IMG/VR virus record: IMGVR_UViG_3300036985_001643
Coordinates: 15,280 to 79,279 of that record
DNA length: 64,000 nucleotides
Direction: 5' to 3' (one strand)
Origin: a virus
Made by a program: the position numbers and the translations under genes. This document shows, in pieces, positions 2,839-43,762 of this stretch (position 1 is the stretch's first letter; the number at the start of each line of letters is the position of its first letter). The notes beneath the pieces are model-generated. The model made no database searches. It saw only the letters and a program-made list of their open reading frames with translations, and was not told where the DNA came from.

Positions 2839-2902
2839 TTCAAGTTACTTATATATTTATAAACAAATAAATCGTAAATTAGCGATTAAATATTTTTGAG
2901 AT

Positions 2903-3256: not shown

Positions 3257-3258
3257 TT

Positions 3259-28200: not shown

Positions 28201-31200
28201 AAGGTAACTATGGAAGACGGTACTACTGTATTCTACGTACACGATAATGCTTGGTTTAGAGAAGAAAACCTTGACAATACACCTGATGCTATTGCTCAAG
28301 ATAAAGCTAACAACTTTAAAATCAGAGAACAAATAATCAAAAAAGGTAAAGTTACTACTAAAGTATCTTATAAAAGTTTTGGTCATTTATTCAGAGCTTA
28401 CGATGGCTCTAAGATTACTACTTCTGAAGCAATGCCAGATAGTGACTTAGCGTTATCTGTTTGTAAGAATGAATCTTTAGATTTTACAAAAGGTAAACTA
28501 TTACCAACTACTTTACAAGAAGGTAGAACTTATGCAATAGTACCTGTAGGACCAGATACTTACTTACCTGTTCCTTTAGAAAGAGCTCCTATTACTCAAG
28601 AGATAGTTGATTCTATTATGATTGCTGTAGAGGCTCACCTTTCAGGTGACACTGAGAATCCTGTTGTACAGGCTATCGGTAACTCTAACTTAGGCTTAGA
28701 CATTACTACTACTGAAGGTTTAAATAAATATGTTCAACAATTTATCTACTTGTATCCTACAGAGAAACAAGAAGGTATTGAGAATCTTTTAATTAACCAA
28801 GGTGGTTCTAAAAGTACTTTGTCTTCTAGTAGACCTATTATTGCAATAACAGCAACAGGTATCGAGTTTGGTAAACCTGGTGTACAAATGGGTTCTTTTA
28901 CTAATCAAGATGGTGTTAAAGTACAATCTTTTGCTGTAGTTCTTTCTAAGAACTTTAAGAAAGATGCTAAGACTACAAAAGGTTTAGCAGCGTTAAGAGC
29001 TATCTTAGAAAGTGGTAATATACTTTCTCATACTCGTTTAGAAAACTTACAAAAGAATCTTGACAGTGTTATCTTATTAGATAACCAAGGAGCTACTAGA
29101 ACTATTAAGTACTCTCAACAAGTAAAAGATTCTACAGTTACTAATCTACGTTCTATTAATATAGGTACAGAGGAAGCACCTAAGTATGTGTATACTATAC
29201 AACCTACTATTAAGTTTGATGTAGCGTTTGCTAAATTAGATAAAGTTAAAAAAGCTAGTTCTACTACTAAGAAAAAAGTTACTGTTCCTAAAGTTACTGT
29301 AACTCCTGTTGCTACTAAAACTACTATTCCTGTTACTACTACAGTTGCTGTATTACAACCAAATGATCTTCAACTTAATGTATCTGCTACTACTAAAAAA
29401 GCAGGTATGGATTCTATTACAAAGCAAGATTCTAGCATAGAGTCATTTGATGAAAATAAGTTTATCAGAGTAACAAAAGCTAATGCAGATGATGTTAATG
29501 GTAAATATTATGCTATTGATAATGGAGTACTAAGAATAAGAATTAATGGAAAAGATGCTGTTTCAGGCAGAACAGGAGGAGCAACCCAAATAAGTGTTAA
29601 AGTCCCAGTAGGATTTAATGAAAAAGTCTTTGCGGAAAAACTTAAAAACATAAGTCATAAAGACGGTGTTACTACTGATAAAGCTGTACAACAAGTTGTT
29701 AATGATGTTAGAAAAGCAATCATAGAAGCACAATCAACTTCCGCAACTACTTCTACTATAGAAGCTAAGAAAGCTGATATAGAAAGAAGAAGACAGACAG
29801 GAACTAATGTTAGAGGTACAACTTATAAAGGAGAAACTACTGAAAAAGATGAATTAAAAGTTACTAAGTATTCTGAGTTTTTTCCTGATGGAAAAAGGAT
29901 CTCTAAAGGAGGTAGAATAATGTTACCTGCTGAATTTATAGAAGAGTACAATATAACTGATCAAGATTATTTAGATAGTCTTGAAGGAGCTACAGAAATA
30001 AGAATATATGAAGTAAGAGTAGGAAAAGATGGTAGATCAGGTATAAGCATACAAGGAACTTTTCCAGAAGGAAACATAGAAACGGATGTTGCTGGTACAG
30101 AACTAACTGCTTTAAGTGAAACTCGAGATGACATAGAAGCTCAAAAAGCTGATGTAGAAAGAAGAACTACAAAAGTAATATCTTCAGAAATTGTAGAAAA
30201 AGGGAACAGAAAAGGTCAAACAAGAACAGTAACTCAAACTAATTCTATAAAAGATGTAGAAGGTACAATAGTAAGTGTAACAGAATATGAAGCAAAAGTT
30301 GGAGATACTACTATCACACTGGGAGGTAAATCAATGACTGTTAAAGAGTTCAAAGAAGAATTTCCATTAGATGAGGATTATGAAGAAATATTTGCAAGTT
30401 GGCCAGATTTAAATGATGATACAATAATTACAGTAAGAAAAGTAAAAAGAACGCCTACTAACTCAAGGTATAAAACTGTTGTGAATATTTTCAACCCTGT
30501 GTTAGGGGGTGAGATGGATATAACTATTAAAAAAGATGATACTAAATATGATGCAGAACTAGCTGCTTTAAAGCAACCTGTTGCTGGTAAACAAGTTCAG
30601 ATAGATGATATAGAAAGAAGACAAAGAGTGGCTGATATAATTACATCTCAGTTTGAATTAGGTGTTGAACTTCCAAAAATTTTAGAAACATTAGCTGAAC
30701 AAGGTTATGTAGAAAAGATTAATAATAGTGCATTTTTTAAACAAAGTGTTGGTAGAGATGCTATAGTTTTTAATATTGATGGTGCAATAGTACCTATATA
30801 TAGAAGCTCAGAAGGAACAAGTAGTAAAACAAAAGGTAAGTGGTATCCTTTTTTCTTTAATGCAGGAGACTGGTTAGTTAAAGGAATGGCTGATAGTTAT
30901 AAAGATGGTTACAATAATCCTATTATTAAACAAATATTAAATAGTTTAAATACTAATTATACCTATGACAAACCAATTGCAAAAGTAAATGGTAACAATA
31001 AAGAGGTATTAGTATTATTAGGTCTTGAAGGATTTGATGAAGAAAATAATGGTATCTATGATTACCAAAATTATCTTGCAGCATCTATAGTATTAAAAGA
31101 TTGGCAAAGTAAATTAGGTAATATTGATGTGTCAGGTTATCAAGAGTATCTTGATGGTGCATTATCTGGGTTAATAAAAGCTAATCCAACTTTAAAATCA

Positions 31201-34200
31201 GAAATAGAAAGTGCATTTAAAACTGCATCAGATAGTTTTGCAGAACTAGCTGCTTTAGAACAAAGCACAAGTGTTGTAAAAACTCAAAAAACAGAATTAG
31301 AGAAAGTAGAACAGGTTAAAGATGTAGTAATAAATGGAGAAAAATATTCATATTATCCATTAGCTGTAAGCCAATCTTCAGGAGCATCTGTGTTAATAGC
31401 AAACAAAAAATCTATTTTAATATCAGACGATTATGGAAATATTTCTGAGTTAGAAACAGCTGAAGAAAAGATTACAGAAAACGATATTACAGCAGGTAAT
31501 ATTTTTTACATGACTGTAGAAAAAGGAGTTCCTAGAATTGTTTCAATAGAAGAAAGTTTACCTGAATTAGGTAATGAAAATGGTTTAAGAACTTATTCAA
31601 TGAGAATAACTTCTTATGACGCAGGAGGATCAAAAGAAATAGAGTCAGGAATTGGTGATTTAGGAAAAATAAAATCATTAGAAAGTAGTATTGGTAAAAG
31701 TGATCTTAGTAAAAAAGAATTAGCTTCAGAGTTAAATAAACTAGGAGTAAAGAAATTAAAAGTAAAGCAAGGACTTATTGTACCTACAATACCTTCAATT
31801 ACAAATCAAGGAAACTTTGAAGAAGATAATACTATTGAGTTACCTAACGATTTAAAGATAGATGCTGCTATTACTTTTACATCTAGTAATGTTTTTCAAA
31901 AAACTTTTAAATCTATAACTACAGCAATTGTAGCAAGTAAGTTGCAATTTACTAAACCTGGTAGATTTATAACTAAAGAAGGAACTTTAACTAAAGAAGG
32001 TGAAGAAATATTAAAAAAATTAACTTCTACTGCTTCTCCTAAAAATTTAAGAGAGTTAGATGCTTTAATTTCTAGCAACTTAGATAAACAACTTTGGGAA
32101 AACGAAAAAGAAAATAGTATAAACTCTATTGTTTTAGACGCTATTACTCAAAATAAAAAAGTAGCTAATTCGTTATTAAGTACAGGAAGGGTAAAATTTA
32201 ATTCTGAATATAGTAATGCATTTGTTGCTACTAGAGAAACTATTAGAGCTAAAAACAAAGAAAATATACAACAGTCCTTTAATAATATTCCAAGTTTAAA
32301 AGAATTAAATTCTCCTGCTTTAGAACAAACTACAGAGCAAGTTATTGCTAACTCTCCTATTCCTTCTGCTGAACAGCAAGTTGAAGAAGCTATTGATCCT
32401 GAAACAATCATAGAACAAGAGGCTATTCAAATGTTAGCTGATCATACAATTGAAGAAATTAATGGATTCTTAGACAATATTAATATAGGTTTAATCACTG
32501 AAGAAGATTTACAAGGACAATCTTTAGAACAAGTTAAACAAGCAATTAACAGAGCTAAAGAAATACATAAAAAGAATAGTGAGAAGAAAACAACTTTCCA
32601 ATTTCCTGGAAAAAAGAGTATTACCGTTGATGGTAACACTAAAGATTCTACGGATATCTCAGAGGATACTTTTGATTATTTAATTAGTCCTCTAAACGAA
32701 GAACAAGTAGACGAGTTAAACGCTGAGGTTGAAGCAATGATTATTAGAGGTGTAGACTCTGAGACACAACGTTCTTTAATTGCTTATATATCTGCAGAGA
32801 TTATTCAAAAAACTCTTGCTGAGAAAGAAGTAGGTGGAGCGAGAACAGTGAAGGTTAAAGATATAATGGATACCAATAAAGAATACTTTATTGCCTTAGC
32901 AGAGTACTACAAGGAAAACGGTTTACCTAACAAAGCTAAAAGATTAGAAGCTGTTGTAGAACAGTTTGATAAAGTAGATAGGTTAGTACAACAATACATG
33001 AGTCTTCTTACTACAGGTACAGTAACTTCTAAACCAAAAACAGAAAGTGAAGAATCAGTAGGATTAGAGAAGACTTTATACACTGATGATTGGGCGTTTA
33101 CTATCGATTCTAAATCTACAGCTTCTGGAGATTTAAAGAAATTCTTTGCTAATATACAAGCACAGGATAAAGACGGATTAAAACAAAACAGTCTAGGGTT
33201 AGAAGAGATAATGCCTTTTGATGCAGTATACGATACTCTTCACGAGATATTAGCTAACAAACCTGCTGACTATACAACAATGATGGAGATTCTTAAGTTG
33301 TATGCAGAGAATTTCCCTTGGATAAACTCTGTAGTAGAATCTATAGAAAAAGCTCCTGAACGTATTAAAAACGAATTTGTTTCAGATATGGCTAAACACC
33401 ATATAGAGATGTCGTTTGTAATGTGGGAAAGAAACAAAAACGGTACTTATAACCTACAACGTTGGTCAAGTAACTCTGCATCTAAAGAGAATAGATTAAG
33501 AGCGATGTGGCAATCTAACTTAAGAGGTGTAGGTACTTCTAGTAACATTGTAGTAGTTAATGACGAAGACGAATACGTATTTGACCACGTAGTTGTAGAT
33601 AGATTAATAACTCAAGCAGAGAAGTTTGCTGAGGATCCTTCTGTGGTTACTAACGATGATATTGCTAATTGGTTAGGTCAATTAGGTATTGTACTTGCTG
33701 ATGACACTTACGATGACTTACGTAACGGTTTATTCAACAATAAAGGTAAGAAAACCTTTAACCAATTATTTACTCATTCTCAAGGGTTATTTAAAGTACT
33801 TACTGCTAAATTAAAAACTATCAGTAATGGTAGACCTAAACCAGGAAAACCTAATACTAACTTAGTAGATAACGCTAATTTAATGACGGATAGTGTTGTT
33901 AAAGCATTGGCTAAATTAGACGCTACTAATAGTCTTAATACTTCTTCTAACTCTTTCCAATCGGGTGGTAAAACTGTTTACTCTTACGGTAACAATAACT
34001 ACTTAGTAAACCGTATGAGAGACTTAACGGCTCACAATGGAGAAAAGTTTATTAACGAAGAACTTATTAAGCATTTACAAGATACTTCTTTTACTAAAGA
34101 TAGTTTATGGTTAAAAGATATTACTTCTACAGATGCTTTAGGAGAAGCTGCTAGAAGAGAGTTAGGGTTAAACTACTTATCGTTAGAAGCGTTAAAGAAA

Positions 34201-36171
34201 AAGTTTACACCTTCTCAAGATGATCGTAAACTAAACAACTTGACACCTGCAGAACACGAGGTAATTAAGTTAGGTTTATTCTTAAATAATTCTGGACAAA
34301 CAATAGGTAAAGAAACTAGACGTAGTGTACAATTCTTTTATCCTACAATGTCGGATAAAACTACTATGTTGAGTATCACTGCTTTAGCTAGAGAGTTAAC
34401 ACTTGAAGAAGGAGTAATATCTAAAGACAACATCAAGTTGTTATTTGATGCTTTAGTACAACCGGAAATTAATCGTATTAGAGATAAACAGGCTTCTGAC
34501 ATTAAAGGTTACGAACCAAACTACTTTTACTTTCTTCCTGCTCTTAATACTCACCCTATTACTATTAATGGTAAAGAGAAAACAGTGTTAGACTTTGTTA
34601 AAGATAAAGACGATAGTATTTACTCACAAGAGTTTAAAGATCAAGTAGAGGCTAAAATTAAAGAAACATACGAACAGTTAGTAGAAGACAAATTAAAAGA
34701 CTGGAAAACTTTAGGTATTGGTAAAACAGTTAAAGACAATAAAGGAAGAGTATCTGAACAATATATGTTTTTAAATTCTTCTTACATGGCCGATGTAGCT
34801 AAAGGTATAGGAGAAGCTAAAGTTAAATATGCAGCAATGGATTACATATTTAACAGTTTAATAGCTAACTCTGAATCGTTTAAGTTATTTGCTGGAGATC
34901 CTGCGTTGTATGCTAAGTTTAAAAAAGATAAAACTTTACAACAAAACCTTGAAGAAACTTTTATCAATATTGGTAAACGTCTTGCTGGAGATATTGCTCC
35001 AGGTATAGAGTTAGCCAACAGTACTAACAATAAGTACCTTCAAGTATTCTTAGAAGATAAGGAGTTAAACAGTAACAATGTTAACGATTCTGTGCAGTTA
35101 GAGTACTTCTCTAAGATAATGAAGGACTATAAGAAAAACTATTCAGGGATAGAAGGATCGGATGCTCAAGAGTATACTACTTGGCAAGAACACATCTACG
35201 TAATGAAACAATTAGGTAGAATTACAGATAACCAATTTGAAGTATTTAATCGTAAGTTGACTGCTCAAACAGATAAAGCTGCTAAAGGTATTCCTTTAAG
35301 CAAAGCTGATAAACTTACATACGAAGAGTTAGGTTTAGTAATGCAACCTATCAAACCTGTATACGTAGGTAACATCGCTGTAACAGATGACAACGTAGAC
35401 AGAAGAATCTATATTAAGTCTTCTAGTTTCCCATTGATTCCTGAGTTAACTGCAGGTCTACAAATAGAGAAAGTACGTAAAGCTATAGAAAAGTTTGAAA
35501 AAGAAGTAGGTGGTAATATATCTTCAGATGGTAACCCTGCTTTTGTTAGAGCTTCTTTTGGTACAGCCAACAAAGTAGGAGCTGTTAAAAACGCAGTAAA
35601 ACTATTTGATGATAATGGTAACGTAAATGATAACTTAGAAATTAAAGAAGAAAACTCTTTAGTACTAAATCGTTCAAACTTCCGTATCCAACAAGACGTA
35701 CCTTACAAAAGAGAAAAGAACGAAATCAACGTAGGTTCTCAAGAGATGAAGTTATTGTTCGTTAACTTATTAGACGTACAAATCGATGAGAATCACACAG
35801 GGGAACAATTGTTAACTAGTTACAATCAAGCATATAAAGAATTGTACGAATATGCTAACGAAAAATTAGCAGAAAGATTAGGATTAGTTACCGAGACTAC
35901 TTCTACTCCAGAGTTAGTAAGTTTGTTAGAAACTCCTACAACTACTGCTGTTGCTGATACTCACGCATTAAAAGAATCTTTGAAAGGTAAATCTACTGTA
36001 CAAAATGTAATAGCTAAACAAAAATTCTCTGAAGAAAAAGGTGAAAATACAATAGATAGAGTTAAATTTATAGACAAAAACTTTGACAAGATTGTAGCAT
36101 CTTTACTTAAAGACGAGCAAATTAAAGTCTTATTCCAAGACGAGAATAACCAAAATAAAAAATGTGAATAA
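25246..36171 (+). CDS. Giant virion cargo protein (3641 aa) carrying the N-terminal part of the crAss-type virion RNA polymerase
   Basis: C-terminal ~1000 aa has KRLAG, DAQEY, QPIKP..YIKSSSFPL, NKVGA, RIQQD, GSQ.MKL motifs as recalled for crAss RNAPs; N-terminal hydrophobic Gly/Ala segments; central repeat-bounded inserts. Confidence 0.75.
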   Translation: MAKKKIVPPPPSPVRLQALSLDTKSDKTLGYNSDIIDEVGAGEEADSGVMQKHYAQKDANFFDPYEDYVDRKTLHGGQFDIEELNTIRATNQSNWEQAGHAVARVATNIVPQIISGFASMVDLPGYIDAEHAASNKIVNWAMDLKKEVDEDWFPIYEEKPGQSMSLSDPAWWMSRGSGLVESVGSFLAQGFGVGKVVSLGAKGIGSVLQGKKLFAALEAIPGVTSGANVAKRIGGATQSLTTAAMLNQSEAVIEATQVFNDTYKARLDEGWDYAKAKKAAAEAASTTMNLNRINILLNLSSATAFLKGQKYTRQLLKNPTLGHTSKELVKEGSQEAVEELINHVASKAGMAKGAEKNYTFENALNDIHSMEGLEAAFLGAIGGIAQTGGTKALEYSKYGPGSTTDESGVKISKVQDARNRYQQQQEVINELKDKGVKITDALNSVKEQLVFEEKLNAAYASGNVEEVKTLHAQMFENVAAKHFSAGTTEVLENLLKAESQKDPEEVGQDYIDRAKQAVKDLRTLENIYNNAEEYANVDEVYRNRASKLRAEKVVPEATTLQKESEFQLNQEVDAIAKKHMFDRERQVLIKKNGVVVDTETKTEKAPITYSLSDLENNTGDTDANKAVYEKFLAEVKALPSYESTNFYTEQLDALQKQIRDLDKDYKNITSDAYQKTAKAKAAEKTKVEQLTKDLPKVSTISEVEKMKESTTDKDFHKAADAKIEEIKKSNDAQAKQKKTQATVAELNTRIEKATEEELEGLLEEINNAELSQTHKTNLRNAYDRRASILNGTPVAVSPEEENPLGAFGFTNNNPNDTAEEIKREEESRATNLPKDLPNPKTETKDVEQQVADTATKLLETDTTRVTGQDTQGNLTYAYGKSTEGHNSGAVLSREFTQTENGGIVTREESTDDIENLQVLDPEVLQSGTPLIMEVDTDYIGPKYDPSSSTRETTSWVDRLAVLKAKAEQQGIPLTQLKEYIAEVPIKVTMEDGTTVFYVHDNAWFREENLDNTPDAIAQDKANNFKIREQIIKKGKVTTKVSYKSFGHLFRAYDGSKITTSEAMPDSDLALSVCKNESLDFTKGKLLPTTLQEGRTYAIVPVGPDTYLPVPLERAPITQEIVDSIMIAVEAHLSGDTENPVVQAIGNSNLGLDITTTEGLNKYVQQFIYLYPTEKQEGIENLLINQGGSKSTLSSSRPIIAITATGIEFGKPGVQMGSFTNQDGVKVQSFAVVLSKNFKKDAKTTKGLAALRAILESGNILSHTRLENLQKNLDSVILLDNQGATRTIKYSQQVKDSTVTNLRSINIGTEEAPKYVYTIQPTIKFDVAFAKLDKVKKASSTTKKKVTVPKVTVTPVATKTTIPVTTTVAVLQPNDLQLNVSATTKKAGMDSITKQDSSIESFDENKFIRVTKANADDVNGKYYAIDNGVLRIRINGKDAVSGRTGGATQISVKVPVGFNEKVFAEKLKNISHKDGVTTDKAVQQVVNDVRKAIIEAQSTSATTSTIEAKKADIERRRQTGTNVRGTTYKGETTEKDELKVTKYSEFFPDGKRISKGGRIMLPAEFIEEYNITDQDYLDSLEGATEIRIYEVRVGKDGRSGISIQGTFPEGNIETDVAGTELTALSETRDDIEAQKADVERRTTKVISSEIVEKGNRKGQTRTVTQTNSIKDVEGTIVSVTEYEAKVGDTTITLGGKSMTVKEFKEEFPLDEDYEEIFASWPDLNDDTIITVRKVKRTPTNSRYKTVVNIFNPVLGGEMDITIKKDDTKYDAELAALKQPVAGKQVQIDDIERRQRVADIITSQFELGVELPKILETLAEQGYVEKINNSAFFKQSVGRDAIVFNIDGAIVPIYRSSEGTSSKTKGKWYPFFFNAGDWLVKGMADSYKDGYNNPIIKQILNSLNTNYTYDKPIAKVNGNNKEVLVLLGLEGFDEENNGIYDYQNYLAASIVLKDWQSKLGNIDVSGYQEYLDGALSGLIKANPTLKSEIESAFKTASDSFAELAALEQSTSVVKTQKTELEKVEQVKDVVINGEKYSYYPLAVSQSSGASVLIANKKSILISDDYGNISELETAEEKITENDITAGNIFYMTVEKGVPRIVSIEESLPELGNENGLRTYSMRITSYDAGGSKEIESGIGDLGKIKSLESSIGKSDLSKKELASELNKLGVKKLKVKQGLIVPTIPSITNQGNFEEDNTIELPNDLKIDAAITFTSSNVFQKTFKSITTAIVASKLQFTKPGRFITKEGTLTKEGEEILKKLTSTASPKNLRELDALISSNLDKQLWENEKENSINSIVLDAITQNKKVANSLLSTGRVKFNSEYSNAFVATRETIRAKNKENIQQSFNNIPSLKELNSPALEQTTEQVIANSPIPSAEQQVEEAIDPETIIEQEAIQMLADHTIEEINGFLDNINIGLITEEDLQGQSLEQVKQAINRAKEIHKKNSEKKTTFQFPGKKSITVDGNTKDSTDISEDTFDYLISPLNEEQVDELNAEVEAMIIRGVDSETQRSLIAYISAEIIQKTLAEKEVGGARTVKVKDIMDTNKEYFIALAEYYKENGLPNKAKRLEAVVEQFDKVDRLVQQYMSLLTTGTVTSKPKTESEESVGLEKTLYTDDWAFTIDSKSTASGDLKKFFANIQAQDKDGLKQNSLGLEEIMPFDAVYDTLHEILANKPADYTTMMEILKLYAENFPWINSVVESIEKAPERIKNEFVSDMAKHHIEMSFVMWERNKNGTYNLQRWSSNSASKENRLRAMWQSNLRGVGTSSNIVVVNDEDEYVFDHVVVDRLITQAEKFAEDPSVVTNDDIANWLGQLGIVLADDTYDDLRNGLFNNKGKKTFNQLFTHSQGLFKVLTAKLKTISNGRPKPGKPNTNLVDNANLMTDSVVKALAKLDATNSLNTSSNSFQSGGKTVYSYGNNNYLVNRMRDLTAHNGEKFINEELIKHLQDTSFTKDSLWLKDITSTDALGEAARRELGLNYLSLEALKKKFTPSQDDRKLNNLTPAEHEVIKLGLFLNNSGQTIGKETRRSVQFFYPTMSDKTTMLSITALARELTLEEGVISKDNIKLLFDALVQPEINRIRDKQASDIKGYEPNYFYFLPALNTHPITINGKEKTVLDFVKDKDDSIYSQEFKDQVEAKIKETYEQLVEDKLKDWKTLGIGKTVKDNKGRVSEQYMFLNSSYMADVAKGIGEAKVKYAAMDYIFNSLIANSESFKLFAGDPALYAKFKKDKTLQQNLEETFINIGKRLAGDIAPGIELANSTNNKYLQVFLEDKELNSNNVNDSVQLEYFSKIMKDYKKNYSGIEGSDAQEYTTWQEHIYVMKQLGRITDNQFEVFNRKLTAQTDKAAKGIPLSKADKLTYEELGLVMQPIKPVYVGNIAVTDDNVDRRIYIKSSSFPLIPELTAGLQIEKVRKAIEKFEKEVGGNISSDGNPAFVRASFGTANKVGAVKNAVKLFDDNGNVNDNLEIKEENSLVLNRSNFRIQQDVPYKREKNEINVGSQEMKLLFVNLLDVQIDENHTGEQLLTSYNQAYKELYEYANEKLAERLGLVTETTSTPELVSLLETPTTTAVADTHALKESLKGKSTVQNVIAKQKFSEEKGENTIDRVKFIDKNFDKIVASLLKDEQIKVLFQDENNQNKKCE
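29758..31260 (+). repeat. Dispersed repeats (IEA.KA)D(I/V)ERR and (A/T)EL(A/T)AL bounding variable domains
   Basis: gat(a/g)tagaaagaaga at 29776, 30151, 30607; cagaacta(g/a)ctgcttta at 30098, 30554, 31241. Confidence 0.85.
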
Positions 36172-36644
36172 TGGAAAAATTACTTACTGACGTAGAGCAA
36201 AAAGAATTAAATAAGTTTGGTAAATTAGAGTTAACAGCTTCACAAGCTTACTTACACCTTACTAATAGAATGAAGACATTGGGTTACTTTGGTGCAGAGA
36301 AGTTCTTTGCAGGTGAATCTAACGATGAAAGAGAGCACTATGCTAAACATGAAGACTTTATGAACAAGTTTAATTGTGAATTAAGTGTTGAAGCATTGAG
36401 CCCTATTGCTTCTGATGTTAGTAACATTAAAGAAGCTTTAGAAATGGCTTACCAAATGGAGGTAGACTTATTAAACGAGTACGAAAAGTCTTGTAAACTT
36501 CCAGAGTTATCAATAAAAGTTGTACTTTTGTTACAAGAGTTTGTTGAAATACAAAGTGGTGCAGTTGGAGAATACGGAGATCTATTAGCTAGATTAACTC
36601 TAACAGACAACATGTTATTATTCGATCAAGAACTAGGAAACTAA
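36171..36644 (+). CDS. ftn: Ferritin (ferroxidase centre apparently intact)
   Basis: E20, Y27, E53-x-x-H56, E97, Q128 spacing of a ferritin four-helix bundle; G.F.GA.KFF and EYGDL motifs. Confidence 0.85.
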   Translation: MEKLLTDVEQKELNKFGKLELTASQAYLHLTNRMKTLGYFGAEKFFAGESNDEREHYAKHEDFMNKFNCELSVEALSPIASDVSNIKEALEMAYQMEVDLLNEYEKSCKLPELSIKVVLLLQEFVEIQSGAVGEYGDLLARLTLTDNMLLFDQELGN

Positions 36645-36654
36645 AAGTACAATT

Positions 36655-39600
36655 ATGGCTTGTCAATATTTTGTAAACGGAGAATGGATCTCTGAGGAAC
36701 AGTTTAAAGAAGTTTTAAACAATGGTTTATTAGATAATTTAGTAGCCAACGGTACTGTTAAAGAAGAAGGATTTCCCGTAGATAATACTAAACTCCTTAA
36801 AACTGAGACAGTTACTACTACTAAAACAACTGTACCTGTAGAAAAACTAGCAGCAATCTTAGCAAAAGAAGTGAGTACTCGTTCAGGGTATCCATTAAAC
36901 ATGTTAAGTGCTCTAGAGTTGAAAGAAGACAAGTCAGACTTTAAAATTCCTTTATGGGCTTCTCCTTACGCAAGTAAGTTTGAGTCTTTATTAACTTCTT
37001 TAGTAAGTAATAAAGTAGTTAAACAAAAGTTTGCTGGTACATCAAGTGTATTAGGTTCGGAAGAAGGGTTTAGAATTAAACAAGGTGACGAAGCAGCAGG
37101 TAGTTTAAAGGACTCCTCTATTGTATTTTCAGACAACTTTGATCCTGAGAAAGGTTTACAACCGATGAGGGTAGATCCTAAAACAGGTAAAATATTACCT
37201 GCTCAAATAATGTTACCTTTTAAGTTTAGAGACGAGTCAGGTAACATATTGTTTATCAACGATTTCCTTAAATTAGATTCTTCAGGAAGACCTTTAAGAA
37301 CTCCAGACGGAAGAGTAACTATTGACGATAGTAAATTACCTGCTAAATTAAGACAGTTATTTGGTTTCCGTATTCCTACACAGGAGCGTAACTCTATGGC
37401 TGCTGTAGAAATAGTAGGGTTTTTACCTGAAGCAATGGGAGATTTAGTACTAGCTCCTAGAGATTTTACTAAACAGATGGGTTCGGATTTTGACGTTGAT
37501 AAGTTGTACAGTTACTTGTATAACCACTTCTATAAAGACGGTAAATTATACACTAATTTCCCAAGTGATAAGAAGACTATTAAAAAACTAACAGATGCTG
37601 CTAAAGAACATTTAGCTACATTGAAAAGTTCTTTAAAACTAAATAGTGCAGAACAAGCATTGTTAAATGCTTACATTGATAACAAGTTAGAAAAAAACGA
37701 TGATAACGATCAAGACGAGTTGCTTACTAAAGCTACTACTCTTATCGCTAGACTTACTAATTCTCCAATAATGGAGGAGATAGAAAACGTTACTAACGAT
37801 TTATCTATTTACAACAGAGCTTACAAAGCTTCTCGTCAAAATAAAATATTAGACATTCACTTATCAGTGATGTTGAGTAATAACCCTGAGGTTATTAAAT
37901 CTATTATTGCATTAGATTCCTTTGGAGATTTTGAGCAATTAGCTCAAGACTTATATAAAGTAAGAAGTGAGCGAGGTTTAATTCCTCCTATTACCACTAT
38001 TCTTTCAGATACTTATCAAAGAACTAAATACATTAACGCTACAGCAGGTAAAACTGGGGTAGGTTCTTTCTCTTTAGATTCTACTTTTAATGCATCTGCT
38101 CAAGGTAAAGAGTTGACCATCATCAATATGGACGATGAGACTCAAACAAATGTATTTGGTACCCCTATAGAACCTAAGAATCCTACTGCTGCTGAAGTAT
38201 TAGAAGCTAATATGACTGTTGCTGCTTTTGGAACTAACGTTTCTAAAGGAGATTTATCAGACAAATATACACTACGTTCTAGAAACTTAATCAACAAAGC
38301 TAAAGAAGAAGGTAGAGAACTTACAGAGGAAGAAAAAGATTCTTTAAAGATGAAGTCTACTATTATTAGATCTTTACAATCTACAGCTGTGGATAATGAA
38401 AAAGCTCAAATATTAGATAAACTTAACATCAACGATCAAACTATGGATGCTGTTAGAGCCCTTACTATATTAGGGTTTGAAGAGAAAGAAATAGTAGGAT
38501 TGATAACACAAGAGATTATTTGGGAGTTTACTGCAGCATTAAAGGATAACGGTTCTTCACTGACTCCTTTCCAAGCTAACGCTGCAGAAACTTTATTTAT
38601 TGATTTAGTAAAGAAATACGATCCTGAAGGTAAACTAGCAGAATTAAAACCTTACGAATTAGAAGCTTTACAAAGTGCTACTAGTGAGTCATTAATGAGT
38701 GACATCAATACTCAAACGTTACAAGAGTTAAGCGTAGGACCAACACCAGATGCTAATCTTAGACAGTTAGCTGCTTTAGCTAAATTCCTTAAACTTACTC
38801 AAATAGGTAAAGATATTAAGACCTTACAGTCTACTATAAATACTGATTCTAAAGGTGTTCCTAAATCTTTAGTAGAAACAGATGCTAAAGTAAAACAAAT
38901 AGAAAGGTTAGCTGCTTCTAACATCTTTAATGCTACTAAGTTGTTAGGAGAATATGAAGGATCTAAATTAGTTACACCTACTACTCTAAATGGTTTTGCT
39001 TCTAAATACGGTACTATGTTTGCAGATACTATCTACAAACAATATTTCCCTTATCATACTACAGGTTTTAAAGTATTAGTAGATGAGTTACTACAATATA
39101 TACCTAAAGGTAAAAATGCTTCGTTAACTAAACAAGCAGAGTTACAATTAGAGTTAATGGACGCTGTTAAGTCTTTCCTTTATGGTAATGCTAATACAAA
39201 CTTGTTTACAGAAAACCCTGATAGTGAACGTGCTAGATTGTTTATAGACACTAAAACTAACAAAAGTTTAGCTACTATACTACAGTCAGTTTCTGAAGAA
39301 AAGTGGTATACTTCTAATGGTTTCCTTAATAAGTTATCGTTAGACCAACAAAAGAATGGTCAAGTTTCTAGAGTAAACTTCGAATCTGCTTCAGGAGAAA
39401 ACTTAGACGAAAGAGATATCTATGACGGGTTTAACTACTTGTTATCTAAGAATTTCCCTATTGGTACTTTTAACGGTATCGATTATACTTCTCGTATGTT
39501 GGCTCAAGATTTAGTAGCTTCAGCGTTCTTAGAAGGAGGTCAACAAGGTTCTAAACAATACTTGAAGTATGTACCTACTGCTTACCTTAAAACTATAGGT

Positions 39601-42600
39601 TTTGGAGATTACTTATCAAATACTTCTTTTAATTACCTTGATACTTTCTTAGGTAATTTAAGCCCTGAAGGACAGTTAATGTATAACAATCCTTCTAGTT
39701 TTATGAGACAATACTTCCAAAATAATGCTGATAAAGCTAAAAAGGTATCGTTGTCTGACTTACAAGGTAAAATATCAGCTGTTCCTGAAGGATACTTTAC
39801 ACTAAACGAAGAAGCTCTAAAGGACAATATAGTAGAGATTACGGATCCTTACACAGGTGAACCAACTACTACACAGACTAAGTTCTTATCTATCTATGAT
39901 AGTAAAGTACCAGGTAAGTATGCATTATTCGAGTTTGACGCTGTAGATAGATTGTACCGTAGAATACCTACTTTACAAGGTTCTTTCGGTTTTGTATCGT
40001 ATAACTCACAAGTTGGTACACCGTTACCTATTGAAAAAGCTAACAGAACTGTTAAACAAGAAGGTAACCAAGAAATACCAGGTTATACTTTACCTCATAC
40101 ACCTACTACTCCTACAAAGTCTTTTGATGTAAACGTGGTTAACAATACTGTTAAACCAGTAACTGCTAATACTTTACCTATTTCAAAAACATTGTCTGGT
40201 ACTAAAGAAGCACTAGACGATTTAATTAATAATATACAATTTGAAGACGGAGTATCTAGTTTAAACAGACAGTTGTTAAGTTCTTTAAGAGATTTACAAT
40301 TACCTGATAACTTTAAAGTAGTGTATGATGATACTTTAAGTAGTAGAGGAGGTTATAGTTATGACAAACAAATATTGTTTATTAACTTAAAACATGAAGC
40401 TAATCAAAATATTGACGGTTTAGCTACCGCTGTTGCTCACGAATTAATACATGCTTTAACAAGTGAGGCTATTTATGAATACCAAAAAGGTGATTTAAGT
40501 AAGTTAACAGCTGACCAAATTAAAGCTATTGAGTCTTTAAAAGCTTTACAAGATAAGTATATTGATCATTTAAAAACTAAAGGTGAAGCAGGTGCTTTAC
40601 AAGCATTTAAAGATAAATATGAAGCTTGGGTAGCACGAGGTAAAACAGGAAAAGTAGGAGTTTCTGCAGAAGATATTTCTAAGTTTTATGCAGGTATTAA
40701 ACTATCAGAGTTTGTTACTATGACTCTTAGTGATCCAGGTTTTCAACAACATCTAGCTTCTGTTATCGATGAGTCAGGAAAATCTCTTTGGGAACAAATT
40801 AAAGAAGTTTTAGGAGAATTGTTAAATACTTTAGGTTTAGATATTAAACCAGGTTCTGCTTTAGCATCTGCTGTAAAAAGCTCTATGGATTTAATTACTG
40901 CTAACCAACAAGCAATGGGTACTAAATTATTTGTTACTAAAATTGATCAATTTAACTACTCTTACGATGCTGTTAATAACGTTGTTATCCACAATGCTAA
41001 AACAGGTGATAAAGTAGAAACTAACGATACACAAATTAATAAGGTATTAGTACAATATGCATTAGCTAATAATAAGGAACAACGTGTGTTTAATGGTTCT
41101 ACTTATGTTGCTATTGCTGATAGAATATTAAACATTAAAAACGCTAACGAAGTAAGTCTAGAAACTTGGGAGTCTGCTAAATCTACTAAGCCATCTACTA
41201 GTATTAAACCTACAATAGATACATCAAGAGAATGGAAAGGTGATTTAGAATCAAGACCTGTCTATACTTCTGAAGGAGTTAATACTATGAGAACTACTTC
41301 TGCTAAAGCTGATGAACATTTTGGTAATCCGTTTAGTGAAGCAGGCTATGGTAATACTATAAAAGTAGCTAGCATAGGTGCGGCTGTCAGAATGTATAAG
41401 GATTGGTTATTAAACAATGCTGTAACTGAATCAGAAATTGTAAAAGGAAATGTTAGTGACTTAGCTAAATTTGATAACCAAAGAGCTTGGATACTTAATC
41501 AAATTAATCAAGGTAAACTTGATGGAGCTACATTGCTTTATGCTGGTAAATCTGAAGCAAGAGGTCAAGGTATGCACCCTACAGCATTAGCTGAAGTAGT
41601 AGAACAATTAAGAAGTAAATCAACTCAACCATCTACTCAACAACAAACTCCAGTAAGTGAAGTTAAAGAAGGTGTGCAAGAAATATTTGAATCTAATCCT
41701 GAATTAGCTAATATAGGTACACCTGAACAATACTCTCAATATCTTGATACTATATTTCCTGATAGTAAAGTAAAAGATATTCTTTATCATGGTACAGCTT
41801 CTCCTAACACTATTGAGAAATTACAACCTCAAAATGATAGAATATACTTTAGTGATAATCTTACAGCTGCAAGATATGCTAGTTGGGATCAAGATAATAG
41901 AGTACAATTTGAACCAGGTTCTCAAACAAAGTTACAAGTAATACCTGCTATTATAAATTTAACAAATCCTGTAAAATTATCAGACGTTAACTTTAAAGAA
42001 ACAGAGACTAATAAAGAAGGAGACGGTATTATTGGTACTAATATAGAAGATCCATTAGGAGGTAGAGAAAATCAAATAGTAGTAAGAAATGCTGATCAAG
42101 TTTATGAATTAGGTACTAAACAAGATTTAGAAGGATTTAAAAAGTTTATTGCTAAAGATACTAAATACGAACTATTCCCAGGTGTATATGCTAATCAAGG
42201 TCAAACAGAAGCTTTAGATAAGTTAACAGATTTCTTAAGCTCTGATAAACAAGCATTCTTACTACAAGGAAAAGGTGGTACAGGTAAAACTACTATTATT
42301 AAAAAGATTGTTAAAGAAGCTCAAGCTCAAGGTAACAGTGTATTAGCAATTGCTCCTACTCATAAAGCTAAAAAAGTATTAGCTAAATCATTAAACGATC
42401 CAGGTATTAAGTCTACTACTTTAGCAGCTGCTTTAGCTATTAAACTTGATGAAACTACAGGTAAATTTACACCTGATGAGTTTGCTAGAAAAATGGATAA
42501 AGTTCCTATTACAAAAACATCTTTAGTAATTATTGATGAGTCTTCTATGATTTCTGATAAACTATTAGAAGAGATTAAAGAGTTACTACCTAAAGGTACT

Positions 42601-43752
42601 AAGATTATTTTTATGGGAGATAAGGCACAGTTACCTCCTGTAGGTCAAGAGAAAGACAGTGCTGTATTTGATGTTAAAAATAACTATACATTAACAGAGA
42701 AAATGCGTCAAGCTGCTACTTCTCCTATTATTAATATAGGAACTAAAGTAGCACAAAACGTAGAAACTACTGGACAAAGAGTTGCTAATCCTATTACAAA
42801 AGAAGATAGAGTAAATGCATTTGATGAAGTAAGTGGTTCTTCTATAATTTGGGAGGACAGTGAAAACAAAGCTTTGGATACCTTTGTAGAAGATATAAAA
42901 AATGCTAATGGTAATGTTGATTTTGCAAAAGTTATTACTTTTAATAATCAAAACCACAATAGTCCTCAATCTGTAAAAAGTTTAAATACTAAGATTAGAT
43001 TAAAATTATACGGAGAACAAGCAAATCAACAACAATTTATACCAGGTGAGATATTAACAGCGTACGATACTTTTGGAGGTGAAGATATTTTATTTTACAA
43101 TAGTGAAGATCTTATAGTAAAAGAAGCTACTGAGCCAGCAAGAAAAACAATTTCTGTAAATGTTACTTCAAGACAACAAGGTAATCGTTCTAAAAGTTTT
43201 GAGTTTAATATAATAAATCTTACTCTTAAAAACGAAGAAGGTAAAGATATAACAGTTCCTATTATTGCTGAATCAAGTAAGGAAGAGTATCAAAGAACGT
43301 TAAGTCAATTGTTTAAAACAGATAAACAAATGGGTTATGCTTTAAGTAGTAAATTTGGTAATTTAGAGTATGGATACGCTATCACTTCTCATAAAGCCCA
43401 AGGATCTACGTATACTAATGTTTACGTGATGGAAGACAATATTATGGGTAGTTCTAACGGAGGTTCTATGAAGGCTAAAAGTCAATCATTATACGTAGCT
43501 GTTTCTAGACCTACTACTAAGTTGGTAATGGTTAGTCAAAAAAACAACCAAAATATCACAGAGGGTACTTTTAGTATGAGTAACTTAGGAGATATCGATT
43601 TAGGTAATTATACAGATAAAGATAATGCTTATAACAACGATGATTACGAAGCTTATTCTAGAGAAATGTATAACAATGACCAAGATCAATTGTTAGCAGA
43701 ATCTCCAATAAGTAGAGATAGATTAGAAAATTATTTGTTACTTTGTAAATAA
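36655..43752 (+). CDS. Virion RNA polymerase catalytic half fused to zincin, DUF4326-like, ADP-ribosyltransferase-like and Dda/RecD-like SF1B helicase domains
   Basis: GFRIPTQ and GSDFDVDK (DxDxD, 37486-37500); HELIH (40438); GNPF (41323); YHGT..IYFS..NQIVV (41785 on); GKGGTGKT, IIDESSM, GDKAQLPPV, HKAQGST, LYVAVSR. Confidence 0.85.
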   Translation: MACQYFVNGEWISEEQFKEVLNNGLLDNLVANGTVKEEGFPVDNTKLLKTETVTTTKTTVPVEKLAAILAKEVSTRSGYPLNMLSALELKEDKSDFKIPLWASPYASKFESLLTSLVSNKVVKQKFAGTSSVLGSEEGFRIKQGDEAAGSLKDSSIVFSDNFDPEKGLQPMRVDPKTGKILPAQIMLPFKFRDESGNILFINDFLKLDSSGRPLRTPDGRVTIDDSKLPAKLRQLFGFRIPTQERNSMAAVEIVGFLPEAMGDLVLAPRDFTKQMGSDFDVDKLYSYLYNHFYKDGKLYTNFPSDKKTIKKLTDAAKEHLATLKSSLKLNSAEQALLNAYIDNKLEKNDDNDQDELLTKATTLIARLTNSPIMEEIENVTNDLSIYNRAYKASRQNKILDIHLSVMLSNNPEVIKSIIALDSFGDFEQLAQDLYKVRSERGLIPPITTILSDTYQRTKYINATAGKTGVGSFSLDSTFNASAQGKELTIINMDDETQTNVFGTPIEPKNPTAAEVLEANMTVAAFGTNVSKGDLSDKYTLRSRNLINKAKEEGRELTEEEKDSLKMKSTIIRSLQSTAVDNEKAQILDKLNINDQTMDAVRALTILGFEEKEIVGLITQEIIWEFTAALKDNGSSLTPFQANAAETLFIDLVKKYDPEGKLAELKPYELEALQSATSESLMSDINTQTLQELSVGPTPDANLRQLAALAKFLKLTQIGKDIKTLQSTINTDSKGVPKSLVETDAKVKQIERLAASNIFNATKLLGEYEGSKLVTPTTLNGFASKYGTMFADTIYKQYFPYHTTGFKVLVDELLQYIPKGKNASLTKQAELQLELMDAVKSFLYGNANTNLFTENPDSERARLFIDTKTNKSLATILQSVSEEKWYTSNGFLNKLSLDQQKNGQVSRVNFESASGENLDERDIYDGFNYLLSKNFPIGTFNGIDYTSRMLAQDLVASAFLEGGQQGSKQYLKYVPTAYLKTIGFGDYLSNTSFNYLDTFLGNLSPEGQLMYNNPSSFMRQYFQNNADKAKKVSLSDLQGKISAVPEGYFTLNEEALKDNIVEITDPYTGEPTTTQTKFLSIYDSKVPGKYALFEFDAVDRLYRRIPTLQGSFGFVSYNSQVGTPLPIEKANRTVKQEGNQEIPGYTLPHTPTTPTKSFDVNVVNNTVKPVTANTLPISKTLSGTKEALDDLINNIQFEDGVSSLNRQLLSSLRDLQLPDNFKVVYDDTLSSRGGYSYDKQILFINLKHEANQNIDGLATAVAHELIHALTSEAIYEYQKGDLSKLTADQIKAIESLKALQDKYIDHLKTKGEAGALQAFKDKYEAWVARGKTGKVGVSAEDISKFYAGIKLSEFVTMTLSDPGFQQHLASVIDESGKSLWEQIKEVLGELLNTLGLDIKPGSALASAVKSSMDLITANQQAMGTKLFVTKIDQFNYSYDAVNNVVIHNAKTGDKVETNDTQINKVLVQYALANNKEQRVFNGSTYVAIADRILNIKNANEVSLETWESAKSTKPSTSIKPTIDTSREWKGDLESRPVYTSEGVNTMRTTSAKADEHFGNPFSEAGYGNTIKVASIGAAVRMYKDWLLNNAVTESEIVKGNVSDLAKFDNQRAWILNQINQGKLDGATLLYAGKSEARGQGMHPTALAEVVEQLRSKSTQPSTQQQTPVSEVKEGVQEIFESNPELANIGTPEQYSQYLDTIFPDSKVKDILYHGTASPNTIEKLQPQNDRIYFSDNLTAARYASWDQDNRVQFEPGSQTKLQVIPAIINLTNPVKLSDVNFKETETNKEGDGIIGTNIEDPLGGRENQIVVRNADQVYELGTKQDLEGFKKFIAKDTKYELFPGVYANQGQTEALDKLTDFLSSDKQAFLLQGKGGTGKTTIIKKIVKEAQAQGNSVLAIAPTHKAKKVLAKSLNDPGIKSTTLAAALAIKLDETTGKFTPDEFARKMDKVPITKTSLVIIDESSMISDKLLEEIKELLPKGTKIIFMGDKAQLPPVGQEKDSAVFDVKNNYTLTEKMRQAATSPIINIGTKVAQNVETTGQRVANPITKEDRVNAFDEVSGSSIIWEDSENKALDTFVEDIKNANGNVDFAKVITFNNQNHNSPQSVKSLNTKIRLKLYGEQANQQQFIPGEILTAYDTFGGEDILFYNSEDLIVKEATEPARKTISVNVTSRQQGNRSKSFEFNIINLTLKNEEGKDITVPIIAESSKEEYQRTLSQLFKTDKQMGYALSSKFGNLEYGYAITSHKAQGSTYTNVYVMEDNIMGSSNGGSMKAKSQSLYVAVSRPTTKLVMVSQKNNQNITEGTFSMSNLGDIDLGNYTDKDNAYNNDDYEAYSREMYNNDQDQLLAESPISRDRLENYLLLCK

Positions 43753-43762
43753 AGAAGACAGT

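What the first reader, a model, noticed from the sequence alone, without database searches (positions are those of the whole stretch)
34900..37510. Virion RNA polymerase split into two genes by an insert carrying a ferritin gene
Seen: RNAP motifs run KRLAG-DAQEY-QPIKP-IKSSSFPL-RIQQD-GSQEMKL at the end of the 3641-aa ORF and resume (KQKFAG...GFRIPTQ...GSDFDVDK) in the 2365-aa ORF. Between them is a 157-aa ferritin, TAATG-coupled to the first half and 10 nt from the second. The polymerase-like sequence appears to break at LAERLGLVTET and restart near KTETVTTTKTT.VEKLAAIL, leaving about 90 aa of extra C-tail and 50 aa of extra N-head. Known: the phi14:2 virion RNAP is a single chain holding both double-psi barrels, while some other crAss-like RNAPs are split. 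Inference: a whole gene junction (tail-stop-ferritin-start-head) was inserted into a surface loop, giving a two-chain enzyme co-expressed with an iron-sequestering protein.
Basis: partly seen in the sequence, partly recalled or inferred. Interest (0 to 1): 0.85.

Follow-up and report, generated by a model that had tools for sequence, protein, structure and literature searches.

The report
Ferritin cassette splits phage RNA polymerase
This phage's injected RNA polymerase, one giant chain in every cultured relative checked, is cut in two by a small gene block (docking tail, ferritin gene, docking head) that also sits between giant virion proteins in unrelated phages.

Summary
ORFs of 3641 aa (25246-36171) and 2365 aa (36655-43752) carry the two halves of a crAss-like two-barrel virion RNA polymerase. 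A 157-aa ferritin gene (36171-36644) lies between them.

The nearest unsplit relative (4439 aa, 39-43% identical) is colinear across the break. About 86 extra C-terminal residues (tail) and 59 extra N-terminal residues (head) remain.

The break maps to about residue 1174 of phi14:2 gp66. That is inside the Connector domain (1095-1238) that links the two double-psi barrels.

Among 80 related polymerase loci, only this clade is split there, and always with ferritin.

The main new result is that tail, ferritin and head form a conserved cassette. It occurred in all 26 distinct contigs I could inspect, in three contexts:
- mid-polymerase, as here;
- upstream of an unsplit polymerase, in phages with 92-94% identical capsid protein;
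- between two giant non-polymerase proteins, in phages with no detectable capsid, terminase or polymerase similarity.

A complex model supports tail-head docking, not ferritin contact: score 0.78; 0.00 with the head swapped out; 0.57 (best control) with the ferritin swapped out. The ferritin keeps all six ferroxidase ligands. Its role is unknown.

First readers of this scan noted the ferritin junction and terminal cysteines on other genomes.

The parts
25246..36171 (+). Giant virion protein P0001 (3641 aa). Its last ~1000 residues are the first half of the RNA polymerase.
   Evidence: ORF list. Colinear with unsplit L033 (residues 50-1324 and 2359-3561) and with FpV4 gp32.
33112..35910 (+). 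Polymerase N-half: the first double-psi barrel plus the N-terminal part of the Connector (P0001 residues about 2623-3555).
   Evidence: blastp to phi14:2 gp66 788-1127, E 1.9e-18. The only significant PDB fold match of a low-confidence model is 6VR4_A, E 6e-9. Core motifs are invariant in split and unsplit relatives alike.
35911..36168 (+). Tail: 86 extra C-terminal residues with a conserved NFDxIV...FFxE...KKC-x end. The penultimate Cys is at 36163-36165.
   Evidence: Unsplit relatives have no counterpart. The tail HMM hits only ORF ends that abut ferritin, once per genome. F58, I61, E78, K83 and C85 are invariant.
36171..36644 (+). Ferritin gene (157 aa). Its ATG overlaps the stop of P0001.
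   Evidence: Pfam PF00210. E20, Y27, E53, H56, E97 and Q128 are invariant in 16 sequences. AF2 model pLDDT 94.6 with five helices; TM 0.90-0.94 to FtnA-type ferritins.
36655..36831 (+). Head: 59 extra N-terminal residues, M-A-C-x-Y...W.SE..FK..L..GLLD. Cys3 is at 36661-36663.
   Evidence: Unsplit relatives have no counterpart. The profile finds 99 representative proteins, always at residues 1 to about 60 and always with a Cys in the first six residues.
36832..40896 (+). Polymerase C-half: the C-terminal part of the Connector, then the second barrel with DFDVD (37486-37500), then downstream polymerase regions (P0003 residues 60-1414).
   Evidence: blastp to gp66 1162-1407, E 1.4e-14, and to FpV4 gp32 2897-4217. 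DFDVD at residue 278 aligns to gp66 DFDID 1361.
40897..43752 (+). C-terminal accessory part of P0003, including a Dda/RecD-like SF1 helicase (about 42193-43539). It ends in Cys-Lys.
   Evidence: Pfam AAA_30 6.7e-29 and UvrD_C_2; phrog_325 2.4e-80. The only cysteines of P0003 are residues 3 and 2364.

Best explanation
The phage is a 79-kb FpV4-like / crAss-like virus record. It makes its two-barrel virion RNA polymerase as two polypeptides.

The cut lies in the Connector domain between the barrels. The first barrel (beta-like) ends up at the C-terminus of a 3641-aa protein. The second barrel (beta-prime-like, DFDVD) ends up at the N-terminus of a 2365-aa protein.

The cut is filled by a portable three-part junction cassette that is older than the split:
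1. a C-terminal tail ending in Cys-x;
2. a ferritin gene;
3. an N-terminal head beginning Met-Ala-Cys.

Shown:
- the split, its position, and colinearity with single-chain relatives;
- the strict co-occurrence of tail, ferritin and head in three genomic contexts;
- intact ferroxidase ligands.

Supported by a model only: tail and head dock onto each other as a small helix-plus-strand module, with both cysteines in the interface.

Inferred:
- Docking, probably reinforced by a Cys-Cys link, holds the halves together so the barrels can form the active site. This would matter after both chains are ejected, unfolded and in very few copies, into the host.
- The three genes are co-transcribed and translationally coupled.
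- The ferritin is a working ferritin made late, in step with the cargo proteins, and is not part of the polymerase itself. I put roughly even odds on two readings. One is that it serves the junction or cargo, by being packaged or by helping the junction mature. The other is that it is a general iron and oxidative-stress helper kept in place by descent.
For: Split and position:
- P0001 'TPELVSLL' (residue 3554) and P0003 'VPVEKLAAIL' (residue 60) both align to gp66 residue 1174.
- The gp66 Connector spans 1095-1238 and links the two barrels (bioRxiv 10.1101/2020.03.07.982082).

Rarity of the split:
- In 80 related DFDxD loci, the motif lies 265-279 aa from the ORF start only in the 5 ferritin-bearing type A loci (a sixth type A locus is cut before the motif).
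- In 66 loci (64 distinct sequences) the 360 residues upstream of the motif, which include the connector, are open in one frame; in all 72 remaining loci the motif lies 469-3487 aa from the ORF start.
- Two loci were not assessable (L057, cut at its end, and L099).
- crAss001 gp50, phi14:2 gp66 and FpV4 gp32 are single chains across the Connector.

Cassette:
- 19 ferritin loci split into 10 mid-polymerase and 9 upstream of an unsplit polymerase.
- The major capsid protein is 92-95% identical across both types, while the polymerases are only 23-30% identical.
- Four type C loci in RNAP-less, unrelated phages carry the same cassette, with ferritin 49% identical.
- Head and tail HMMs hit only the termini that flank ferritin.
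- 99 head-bearing representatives are all N-terminal.

Docking:
- Complex prediction of tail, ferritin and head scored 0.78; the best control scored 0.57.
- That mark was reached by 58 of 80 solved complexes and 2 of 110 mismatched pairs.
- Runs agree in at least 98% of contacts, and partner pLDDT is at least 81.
- Controls with the head swapped out scored 0.00.
- The reported interface is between tail and head only.

Ferritin.

No rejoining into one chain:
- There are at least 17 in-frame stops across the ferritin.
- No intron family was found.
- Neither giant ORF has a Hint or intein family.

No terminator lies in 35000-37600.
Against: - Nothing here is experimental. Virion packaging of these particular proteins, reassembly of the halves, a disulfide and iron binding are all inferred.
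- The 0.57 control kept the tail, so it is not a true negative for the tail-head pair. The alignments were my own and shallow (13 rows). The tool's calibration used pairs of chains, not three.
- Four type B loci carry a different, shorter tail (ending ...QGCK) with an almost identical head, so tail-head fit is not strictly co-evolving.
- Most crAss-like phages have Cys-bearing junctions and no ferritin, so ferritin is not generally needed for such junctions.
- A distant phage (L037) has another ferritin (30% identical) next to its polymerase gene with no tail or head.
Confidence: 0.68

Rival explanations
1. The ferritin is a pure passenger: a moron or auxiliary gene that landed once at a gene boundary. 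Tail and head dock independently of it. The constant order reflects only descent and transfer of a short block.
For: - No ferritin contact with the head appears in the reported interface.
- The ferritin's cysteines are not conserved.
- No fused ferritin forms were found (weak evidence).
- Ferritin-less Cys junctions are the rule in crAss-like phages, including this window's second junction at 43752/43763.
- L037 carries a ferritin with no tail or head.
Against: - Tail-Cys, ferritin and head are adjacent in 26 of 26 contigs, across phages whose flanking giant proteins and capsid genes are no longer alignable. A dispensable passenger would be expected to be lost or moved in some of them.
- The ferritin is 49-92% conserved and its active site is invariant.
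Confidence: 0.3
2. De novo fission: a ferritin gene inserted into a loop of this lineage's polymerase. Tail and head are new, lineage-specific extensions, or leftovers of a duplicated Connector.
For: MAFFT placed the head and tail over Connector segments, and a short 'P..L..LL' stretch seems present on both sides of the break.
Against: - The same tail, ferritin and head lie at ordinary gene boundaries in type B and type C phages.
- Profile comparison of head and tail against a 72-sequence Connector alignment is not significant (E 0.058 and 0.26).
Confidence: 0.04
3. The two ORFs are not really separate. They are rejoined by an intron, intein, frameshift or readthrough, or the split is an assembly error or pseudogene.
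For: P0001 and P0003 are in the same reading frame, 486 bases apart.
Against: - The intervening frame has at least 17 stops.
- No Rfam intron was found.
- Neither giant ORF has a Hint or intein family.
- The tail ends in Cys-x rather than starting with Cys.
- The arrangement is conserved in many independent contigs and in 14 clusters, with catalytic motifs invariant in both halves.
Confidence: 0.02

Closest known systems
Virion RNA polymerase gp66 of Cellulophaga phage phi14:2 (PDB 6VR4; Drobysheva et al., bioRxiv 10.1101/2020.03.07.982082), with its homologues crAss001 gp50 and FpV4 gp32
   Same: Both have a two-barrel polymerase with DFD[IV]D in the second barrel, embedded in giant virion proteins with accessory domains. 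Sequence homology covers both barrels and the Connector. The termini follow the same Met-x-Cys start and Cys-x end pattern.
   Different: Those are single chains. Here the chain is cut at about gp66 residue 1174, inside the Connector (1095-1238). Each side gains a terminal module, and a ferritin gene lies between them.
Cellular multisubunit RNA polymerases (bacterial beta and beta-prime)
   Same: The two double-psi barrels sit on two different polypeptides encoded by successive genes, with the DxDxD barrel on the second (stated in the paper read). The split phage enzyme has the same topology.
   Different: The split is secondary, within a single-chain family. No alpha or omega assembly platform is evident. 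Assembly would rest on a short docking pair instead.
Docking domains of modular polyketide and non-ribosomal peptide synthases (from my own knowledge)
   Same: Short C-terminal and N-terminal modules on proteins encoded by successive genes pair up and set the order of giant polypeptides.
   Different: No sequence relation was tested or is claimed. The modules here carry a conserved cysteine each, flank a ferritin gene, and sit on phage virion proteins.
Classical 24-mer ferritins (E. coli FtnA, V. cholerae ferritin, animal H chain)
   Same: The model has the five-helix fold (TM 0.90-0.94, rmsd 1.5-1.7 A). It has the Glu, Tyr, Glu-x-x-His, Glu and Gln di-iron ligands.
   Different: It is only 17-22% identical to solved ferritins. 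It is phage-encoded and always wedged between two giant virion-protein genes. I found no match in 50,697 GenBank phage records.
Terminal-cysteine rule of crAss-like cargo proteins
   Same: The cargo proteins are nearly Cys-free, with a Cys at each end that faces the next protein. I confirmed this here in 20 of 20 loci and in 99 of 99 head-bearing proteins.
   Different: The junction here also carries a recognisable docking domain pair and a ferritin gene, and it lies inside the polymerase.

Membership tests
crAss-like two-barrel virion RNA polymerase (gp66 family) | DFDxD metal-binding motif in the second double-psi barrel, with Ile or Val at the fourth position | tested here: met
   DFDVD is at P0003 278-282. 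It aligns to gp66 1361-1365 and is invariant in 9 aligned relatives.
crAss-like two-barrel virion RNA polymerase (gp66 family) | Homology to gp66 across the first barrel, the Connector and the second barrel | tested here: met
   blastp: P0001 3127-3510 to gp66 788-1127 (1.9e-18), and P0003 48-319 to gp66 1162-1407 (1.4e-14). Foldseek hit to 6VR4_A, E 6e-9.
crAss-like two-barrel virion RNA polymerase (gp66 family) | Both barrels within one polypeptide | tested here: not met
   A stop at 36169-36171, a separate ferritin ORF and at least 17 stops in frame. The split is conserved in 14 representative clusters.
crAss-like two-barrel virion RNA polymerase (gp66 family) | Packaged in the virion, ejected, and transcribes early genes | not testable with these tools
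   Inferred only from homologues annotated as virion structural proteins: FpV4 gp32, and phi14:2 by MS/MS.
Classical ferritin (PF00210, 24-mer type) | Ferritin-like domain above the curated threshold, and a five-helix fold | tested here: met
   41.2 bits against a cut-off of 24.5. The model has helices A-E at pLDDT 94.6, and the top fold matches are FtnA-type ferritins.
Classical ferritin (PF00210, 24-mer type) | Complete ferroxidase-centre ligands | tested here: met
   E20, Y27, E53, H56, E97 and Q128 are invariant in 16 phage ferritins, including the 28%-identical L037 protein.
Classical ferritin (PF00210, 24-mer type) | Assembly into a 24-subunit cage and iron mineralisation | not testable with these tools
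No oligomer model was made.
Split intein or intron-interrupted gene | Hint-domain blocks (Cys at the start of the N-part, His-Asn then Cys at the end of the C-part), or a group I/II intron RNA | tested here: not met
   No Hint or intein Pfam family in P0001 or P0003. The tail ends in Cys-x and the head starts Met-Ala-Cys. No intron family in 35500-37200.
Inter-protein docking domain pair | A C-terminal module of one protein binds the N-terminal module of the next | tested here: inconclusive
   The model supports binding but does not show it. Score 0.78, best control 0.57. The mark was reached by 58 of 80 solved complexes and 2 of 110 mismatched pairs. The interface is tail-head only.

The most novel reading that the evidence does not exclude
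The ferritin is a working part of the junction, not a bystander. Its ferroxidase chemistry consumes O2 and can release peroxide. That chemistry, or its iron, would lock the tail cysteine to the head cysteine in the reducing cytoplasm before packaging, by a disulfide or an iron-bridged link. On this reading, tail, ferritin and head form a self-contained 'protein stapler' that phages move between giant ejected proteins. It can even turn a one-chain polymerase into a tethered two-chain one.
Probability: 0.12. Interest if true: 0.9.

Novelty: new variant of a known kind. Interest (0 to 1): 0.72.

Why it matters
Single-chain two-barrel polymerases (phi14:2 gp66, QDE-1) and multisubunit cellular polymerases are usually treated as separate architectures. 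This is a natural, evolutionarily stable case of the single-chain form cut exactly between the barrels. It offers a test of what is needed to reassemble such an enzyme from two ejected, refolding chains.

The cassette also gives the first recognisable domain pair at a cargo-protein junction. That makes the idea of ordered, tethered ejection of giant phage proteins directly testable.

A ferritin locked in this position across unrelated phages points to an unrecognised link between iron or oxidant chemistry and virion cargo. I found nothing like it in cultured phages or in the searchable literature.

Tried and rejected
- Origin of head and tail from a duplicated Connector: suggested by a MAFFT fragment alignment, but hhalign against 72 Connector sequences gave E 0.058 and 0.26, which is not significant.
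- phmmer of either polymerase half against PDB sequences found nothing at E 0.01. blastp and Foldseek did find gp66 / 6VR4.
- The structure model of P0001 residues 3250-3641 was poor (pLDDT 63). I used it only for the 6VR4 hit.
- Ferritin contact with tail or head: the three-chain model listed no ferritin residues in the head's interface, and swapping the ferritin left the tail-head contacts in place. This gives no support for ferritin binding, but it is not evidence against it.
- Ferritin tree against cassette position: type A and type B ferritins are intermixed (about 5 changes; no better than shuffled labels in 58 of 500). One origin is not excluded by the well-supported branches. I take this as a sign of recombination, not proof.
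- Fused ferritin forms of 276-2000 aa: none found (weak evidence).
- Cultured phages with the cassette: none among 50,697 GenBank records.
- Literature searches for phage ferritin or cargo-protein disulfides gave nothing relevant beyond tail disulfides in crAss001.
- Promoter-like sites in the region are at chance level (8 found against 8.2 expected).


Full report
**1. What is in the sequence**

The + strand carries a run of giant ORFs. Three concern this finding:
- P0001, 25246-36171, 3641 aa;
- a 157-aa ORF, 36171-36644;
- P0003, 36655-43752, 2365 aa.

The stop of P0001 overlaps the ATG of the small ORF (TAATG). Ten bases separate the small ORF's stop from the ATG of P0003. No terminator-like site lies in 35000-37600, and promoter-like sites are at chance level.

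The small ORF is a ferritin (Pfam PF00210, 41.2 bits against a cut-off of 24.5). P0003 ends with a Dda/RecD-like helicase.

The window belongs to a 79,279-base virus record. Its terminase, portal and major capsid genes lie just upstream of the window.

**2. The polymerase really is split, and where**

One PHROG profile of 4401 positions (phrog_16227, 'virion structural protein') matches the end of P0001 (3298-3550 to profile 2749-2993). It then matches the start of P0003 (62-1039 to profile 3003-4005).

In Flavobacterium phage FpV4 the homologue is one 4287-aa protein, gp32. P0001 2623-3549 aligns to gp32 1899-2886, and P0003 62-1414 aligns to gp32 2897-4217.

The nearest unsplit relative I found is a 4439-aa metagenomic ORF in locus L033. 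It is 43% and 39% identical to the two halves and colinear along the whole of both proteins. P0001 up to 3561 reaches L033 residue 2759, and P0003 from 60 starts at residue 2750.

So about 80-90 residues at the end of P0001 (the tail) and 59 at the start of P0003 (the head) have no counterpart.

Against phi14:2 gp66, P0001 3127-3510 aligns to 788-1127 and P0003 48-319 aligns to 1162-1407. DFDVD at P0003 278 sits on gp66 DFDID 1361. In a multiple alignment, the last homologous stretch of P0001 (residue 3554) and the first of P0003 (residue 60) both fall on gp66 residue 1174.

The gp66 paper places a 'Connector' domain at 1095-1238, which joins the two double-psi barrels (bioRxiv 10.1101/2020.03.07.982082). 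The break is therefore in the middle of the Connector. The first barrel is on P0001 and the DFDVD barrel is on P0003. This is the same division of labour as beta and beta-prime in cellular enzymes.

A low-confidence model of the P0001 end (pLDDT 63) still found 6VR4 as its only significant PDB match (E 6e-9).

**3. The split is real and rare**

The same arrangement recurs in 12 other independent IMG/VR contigs (10 of the first set and 2 new ones in the second set) at 45-64% identity.

I fetched 80 loci that encode relatives of the DFDxD region. In the five ferritin-bearing type A loci, the motif lies 265-279 aa from the ORF start. A sixth type A locus is cut before the motif. Two loci could not be assessed: L057 is cut at its end, and L099 carries the motif in an ORF of only about 500 aa. 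In the other 72 loci the motif lies 469-3487 aa from the ORF start, and in 66 of them (64 distinct sequences) the 360 residues upstream of the motif, including the connector, are open in one frame.

crAss001 gp50 is also a single chain across the Connector.

Rejoining into one chain is unlikely:
- The P0001 frame has at least 17 stops across the ferritin.
- No intron family matches.
- Neither giant ORF has a Hint or intein domain.

Core motifs of both halves are invariant between split and unsplit relatives, so both halves look functional.

**4. The cassette**

This is the main new result. The 19 loci found with the ferritin (60-76% identical) fall into two kinds.

Type A (10 loci) is like the window.

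In type B (9 loci), the ferritin sits between a protein of roughly 1300-1700 aa, where it is complete in the locus, and a giant protein of 3119-3677 aa, in the two records where I read it whole. That giant protein starts with the same head. It contains an unsplit polymerase with DFDxD at residue 2012 or 2512, and one alignment to gp66 855-1751 crosses the Connector.

Five type B upstream proteins end with the same tail motif (NFDxI...FF.E..FKKC). Four carry a shorter variant ending QGCK.

The major capsid protein is 92-95% identical between the window and phages of both types. Yet the type A and type B polymerases are only 23-30% identical. The cargo block is therefore mosaic within one close group of phages. 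The ferritin tree also mixes the two types.

A profile of the head was searched against 1.84 billion representative proteins. It gave 102 hits, 99 of them genuine. All matched at residues 1 to about 60, and all have a cysteine in the first six residues. They divide as follows:
- 14 have DFDxD about 270 aa from the start (split polymerase);
- 15 have DFDxD at about 1900-2200 (unsplit polymerase);
- 28 are proteins of 1180-2461 aa with no DFDxD (type C);
- the rest are short fragments.

All four type C loci I could fetch show the same order. A giant protein ends ...KKKC or ...KKDCK, a ferritin of 155-161 aa overlaps or abuts it, and then comes the head-bearing protein.

One of these type C phages is a 97%-complete, 65.7-kb record. 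It has no detectable match to the window's capsid protein, terminase or polymerase. Its ferritin is nonetheless 49% identical. Outside the head, the flanking giant proteins are not alignable.

In all, 26 of 26 distinct contigs with a head have a tail-Cys and a ferritin directly upstream. HMMs of the head and tail hit nothing else in any locus, and each hits once in the window's own genome.

**5. Docking**

I folded tail, ferritin and head together, each with its own alignment, and scored the head.
- The model supports binding but does not show it. The score was 0.78 and the best control 0.57.
- That mark was reached by 58 of 80 solved complexes and 2 of 110 mismatched pairs.
- The runs agree in at least 98% of contacts, and the partner's pLDDT is at least 81.
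- These counts hold only roughly, because the alignments were mine and the job had three chains.
- With the head replaced by unrelated proteins the score was 0.00.
- With the ferritin replaced it stayed at 0.57, with the same number of contacts.
- The listed interface involves only tail residues (1-18 and 46-86 of the 86-residue piece) and head residues 1-48.
- The conserved tail helix packs on the conserved head helix. A tail strand packs on the head's first strand. Both terminal stretches that carry the cysteines are in the interface.

My reading is that tail and head form a two-chain mini-domain that brings the penultimate Cys of P0001 next to Cys3 of P0003.

P0003 has cysteines only at residues 3 and 2364. 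P0001 has one at 3640 and one other. The terminal-Cys rule held in 20 of 20 loci. The same pattern is seen at the ends of FpV4 gp32/gp33 and phi14:2 gp66. Earlier AI notes of this scan report the rule in other crAss-like phages, and I checked it only on the loci above. The crAss001 structure paper reports disulfides in the tail but says nothing on cargo termini (PMC10172136).

**6. The ferritin**

Six ferroxidase-centre positions (E20, Y27, E53, H56, E97, Q128) are invariant in 16 phage ferritins. The model (pLDDT 94.6) has the five ferritin helices. It superposes on FtnA-type ferritins at TM 0.90-0.94 with 17-22% identity.

At least 183 clusters at 90% identity exist in metagenomes. The 120 listed are 63-92% identical to P0002. 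I found none in 50,697 GenBank phage records.

Its cysteines are not conserved, and no fused forms were found.

A distant crAss-like phage (L037, capsid protein 30% identical) has a different ferritin, 30% identical over the 88 residues that BLAST aligns. It lies immediately downstream of that phage's unsplit polymerase gene, without a tail or head. Ferritin has therefore entered this gene block more than once.

**7. Interpretation**

The cassette is older and wider than the split, and the nearest unsplit relatives are colinear. The split therefore most likely arose when the cassette came to lie inside the Connector, either by insertion or by recombination on both sides.

The resulting enzyme would be held together by the native barrel interface plus the docking pair, and perhaps by a Cys-Cys link. 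That would matter for proteins that enter the cell unfolded and in very few copies.

The ferritin's function is open. Strict adjacency across unrelated phages argues for a tie to the junction or the cargo. The lack of any modelled contact, the many ferritin-less Cys junctions, and L037 argue for a co-expressed helper. I give the two readings about even odds.

I found no description of a barrel-split crAss-like polymerase, of this docking pair, or of a phage ferritin in this position in the library searches. The library does not hold most subscription-journal papers.

Noticed in passing
window 43740-43780: A second junction of the same chain. P0003 ends ...LLLCK, and 10 bases later the 1379-aa ORF starts MSAATC (its only Cys). 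There is no ferritin and no head or tail module here. Type B phages have the matching junction (...NC / MAFC, MSYC).
   Followed up: partly
window 25246-47902 compared with L003-L028: Phages with 92-95% identical capsid protein carry polymerase and cargo genes that are only 23-30% identical or not alignable at all. One set is FpV4-like and the other aligns better to phi14:2 gp66. The cargo block seems to be exchanged as alternative modules within one close group.
   Followed up: partly
L037:15076-15588: A distantly related crAss-like phage (capsid protein 30% identical) has a different 170-aa ferritin (Pfam 7.4e-22). It lies directly after its 2916-aa unsplit polymerase ORF and overlaps the next ORF, with no tail or head modules.
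   Followed up: partly
L099:9806-11300: One relative carries the DFDxD motif in an ORF of only about 500 aa, 121 aa from its start, with no ferritin nearby. It may be a fragmented or differently expressed polymerase.
   Followed up: no
L110:14375-17013, L111:12352-14942, L112:14775-17356: In type C phages, the head-bearing giant protein is followed by three small, very cysteine-rich proteins (starts such as MSCNC, ends such as ...CNC or ...CCCS). One of them weakly matches a tail-fibre PHROG.
   Followed up: no
window 40897-43752, and L017-L021: The C-terminal accessory part of the DFDVD-bearing protein varies widely among type A relatives (total length 1479-2365 aa). The window's version has an HELIH zincin-like motif and a complete SF1 helicase.
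   Followed up: partly
L112:8001-14723: A type C head-bearing giant protein has a GNAT acetyltransferase domain at residues 96-170, right after the head (Pfam 5.5e-07).
   Followed up: no
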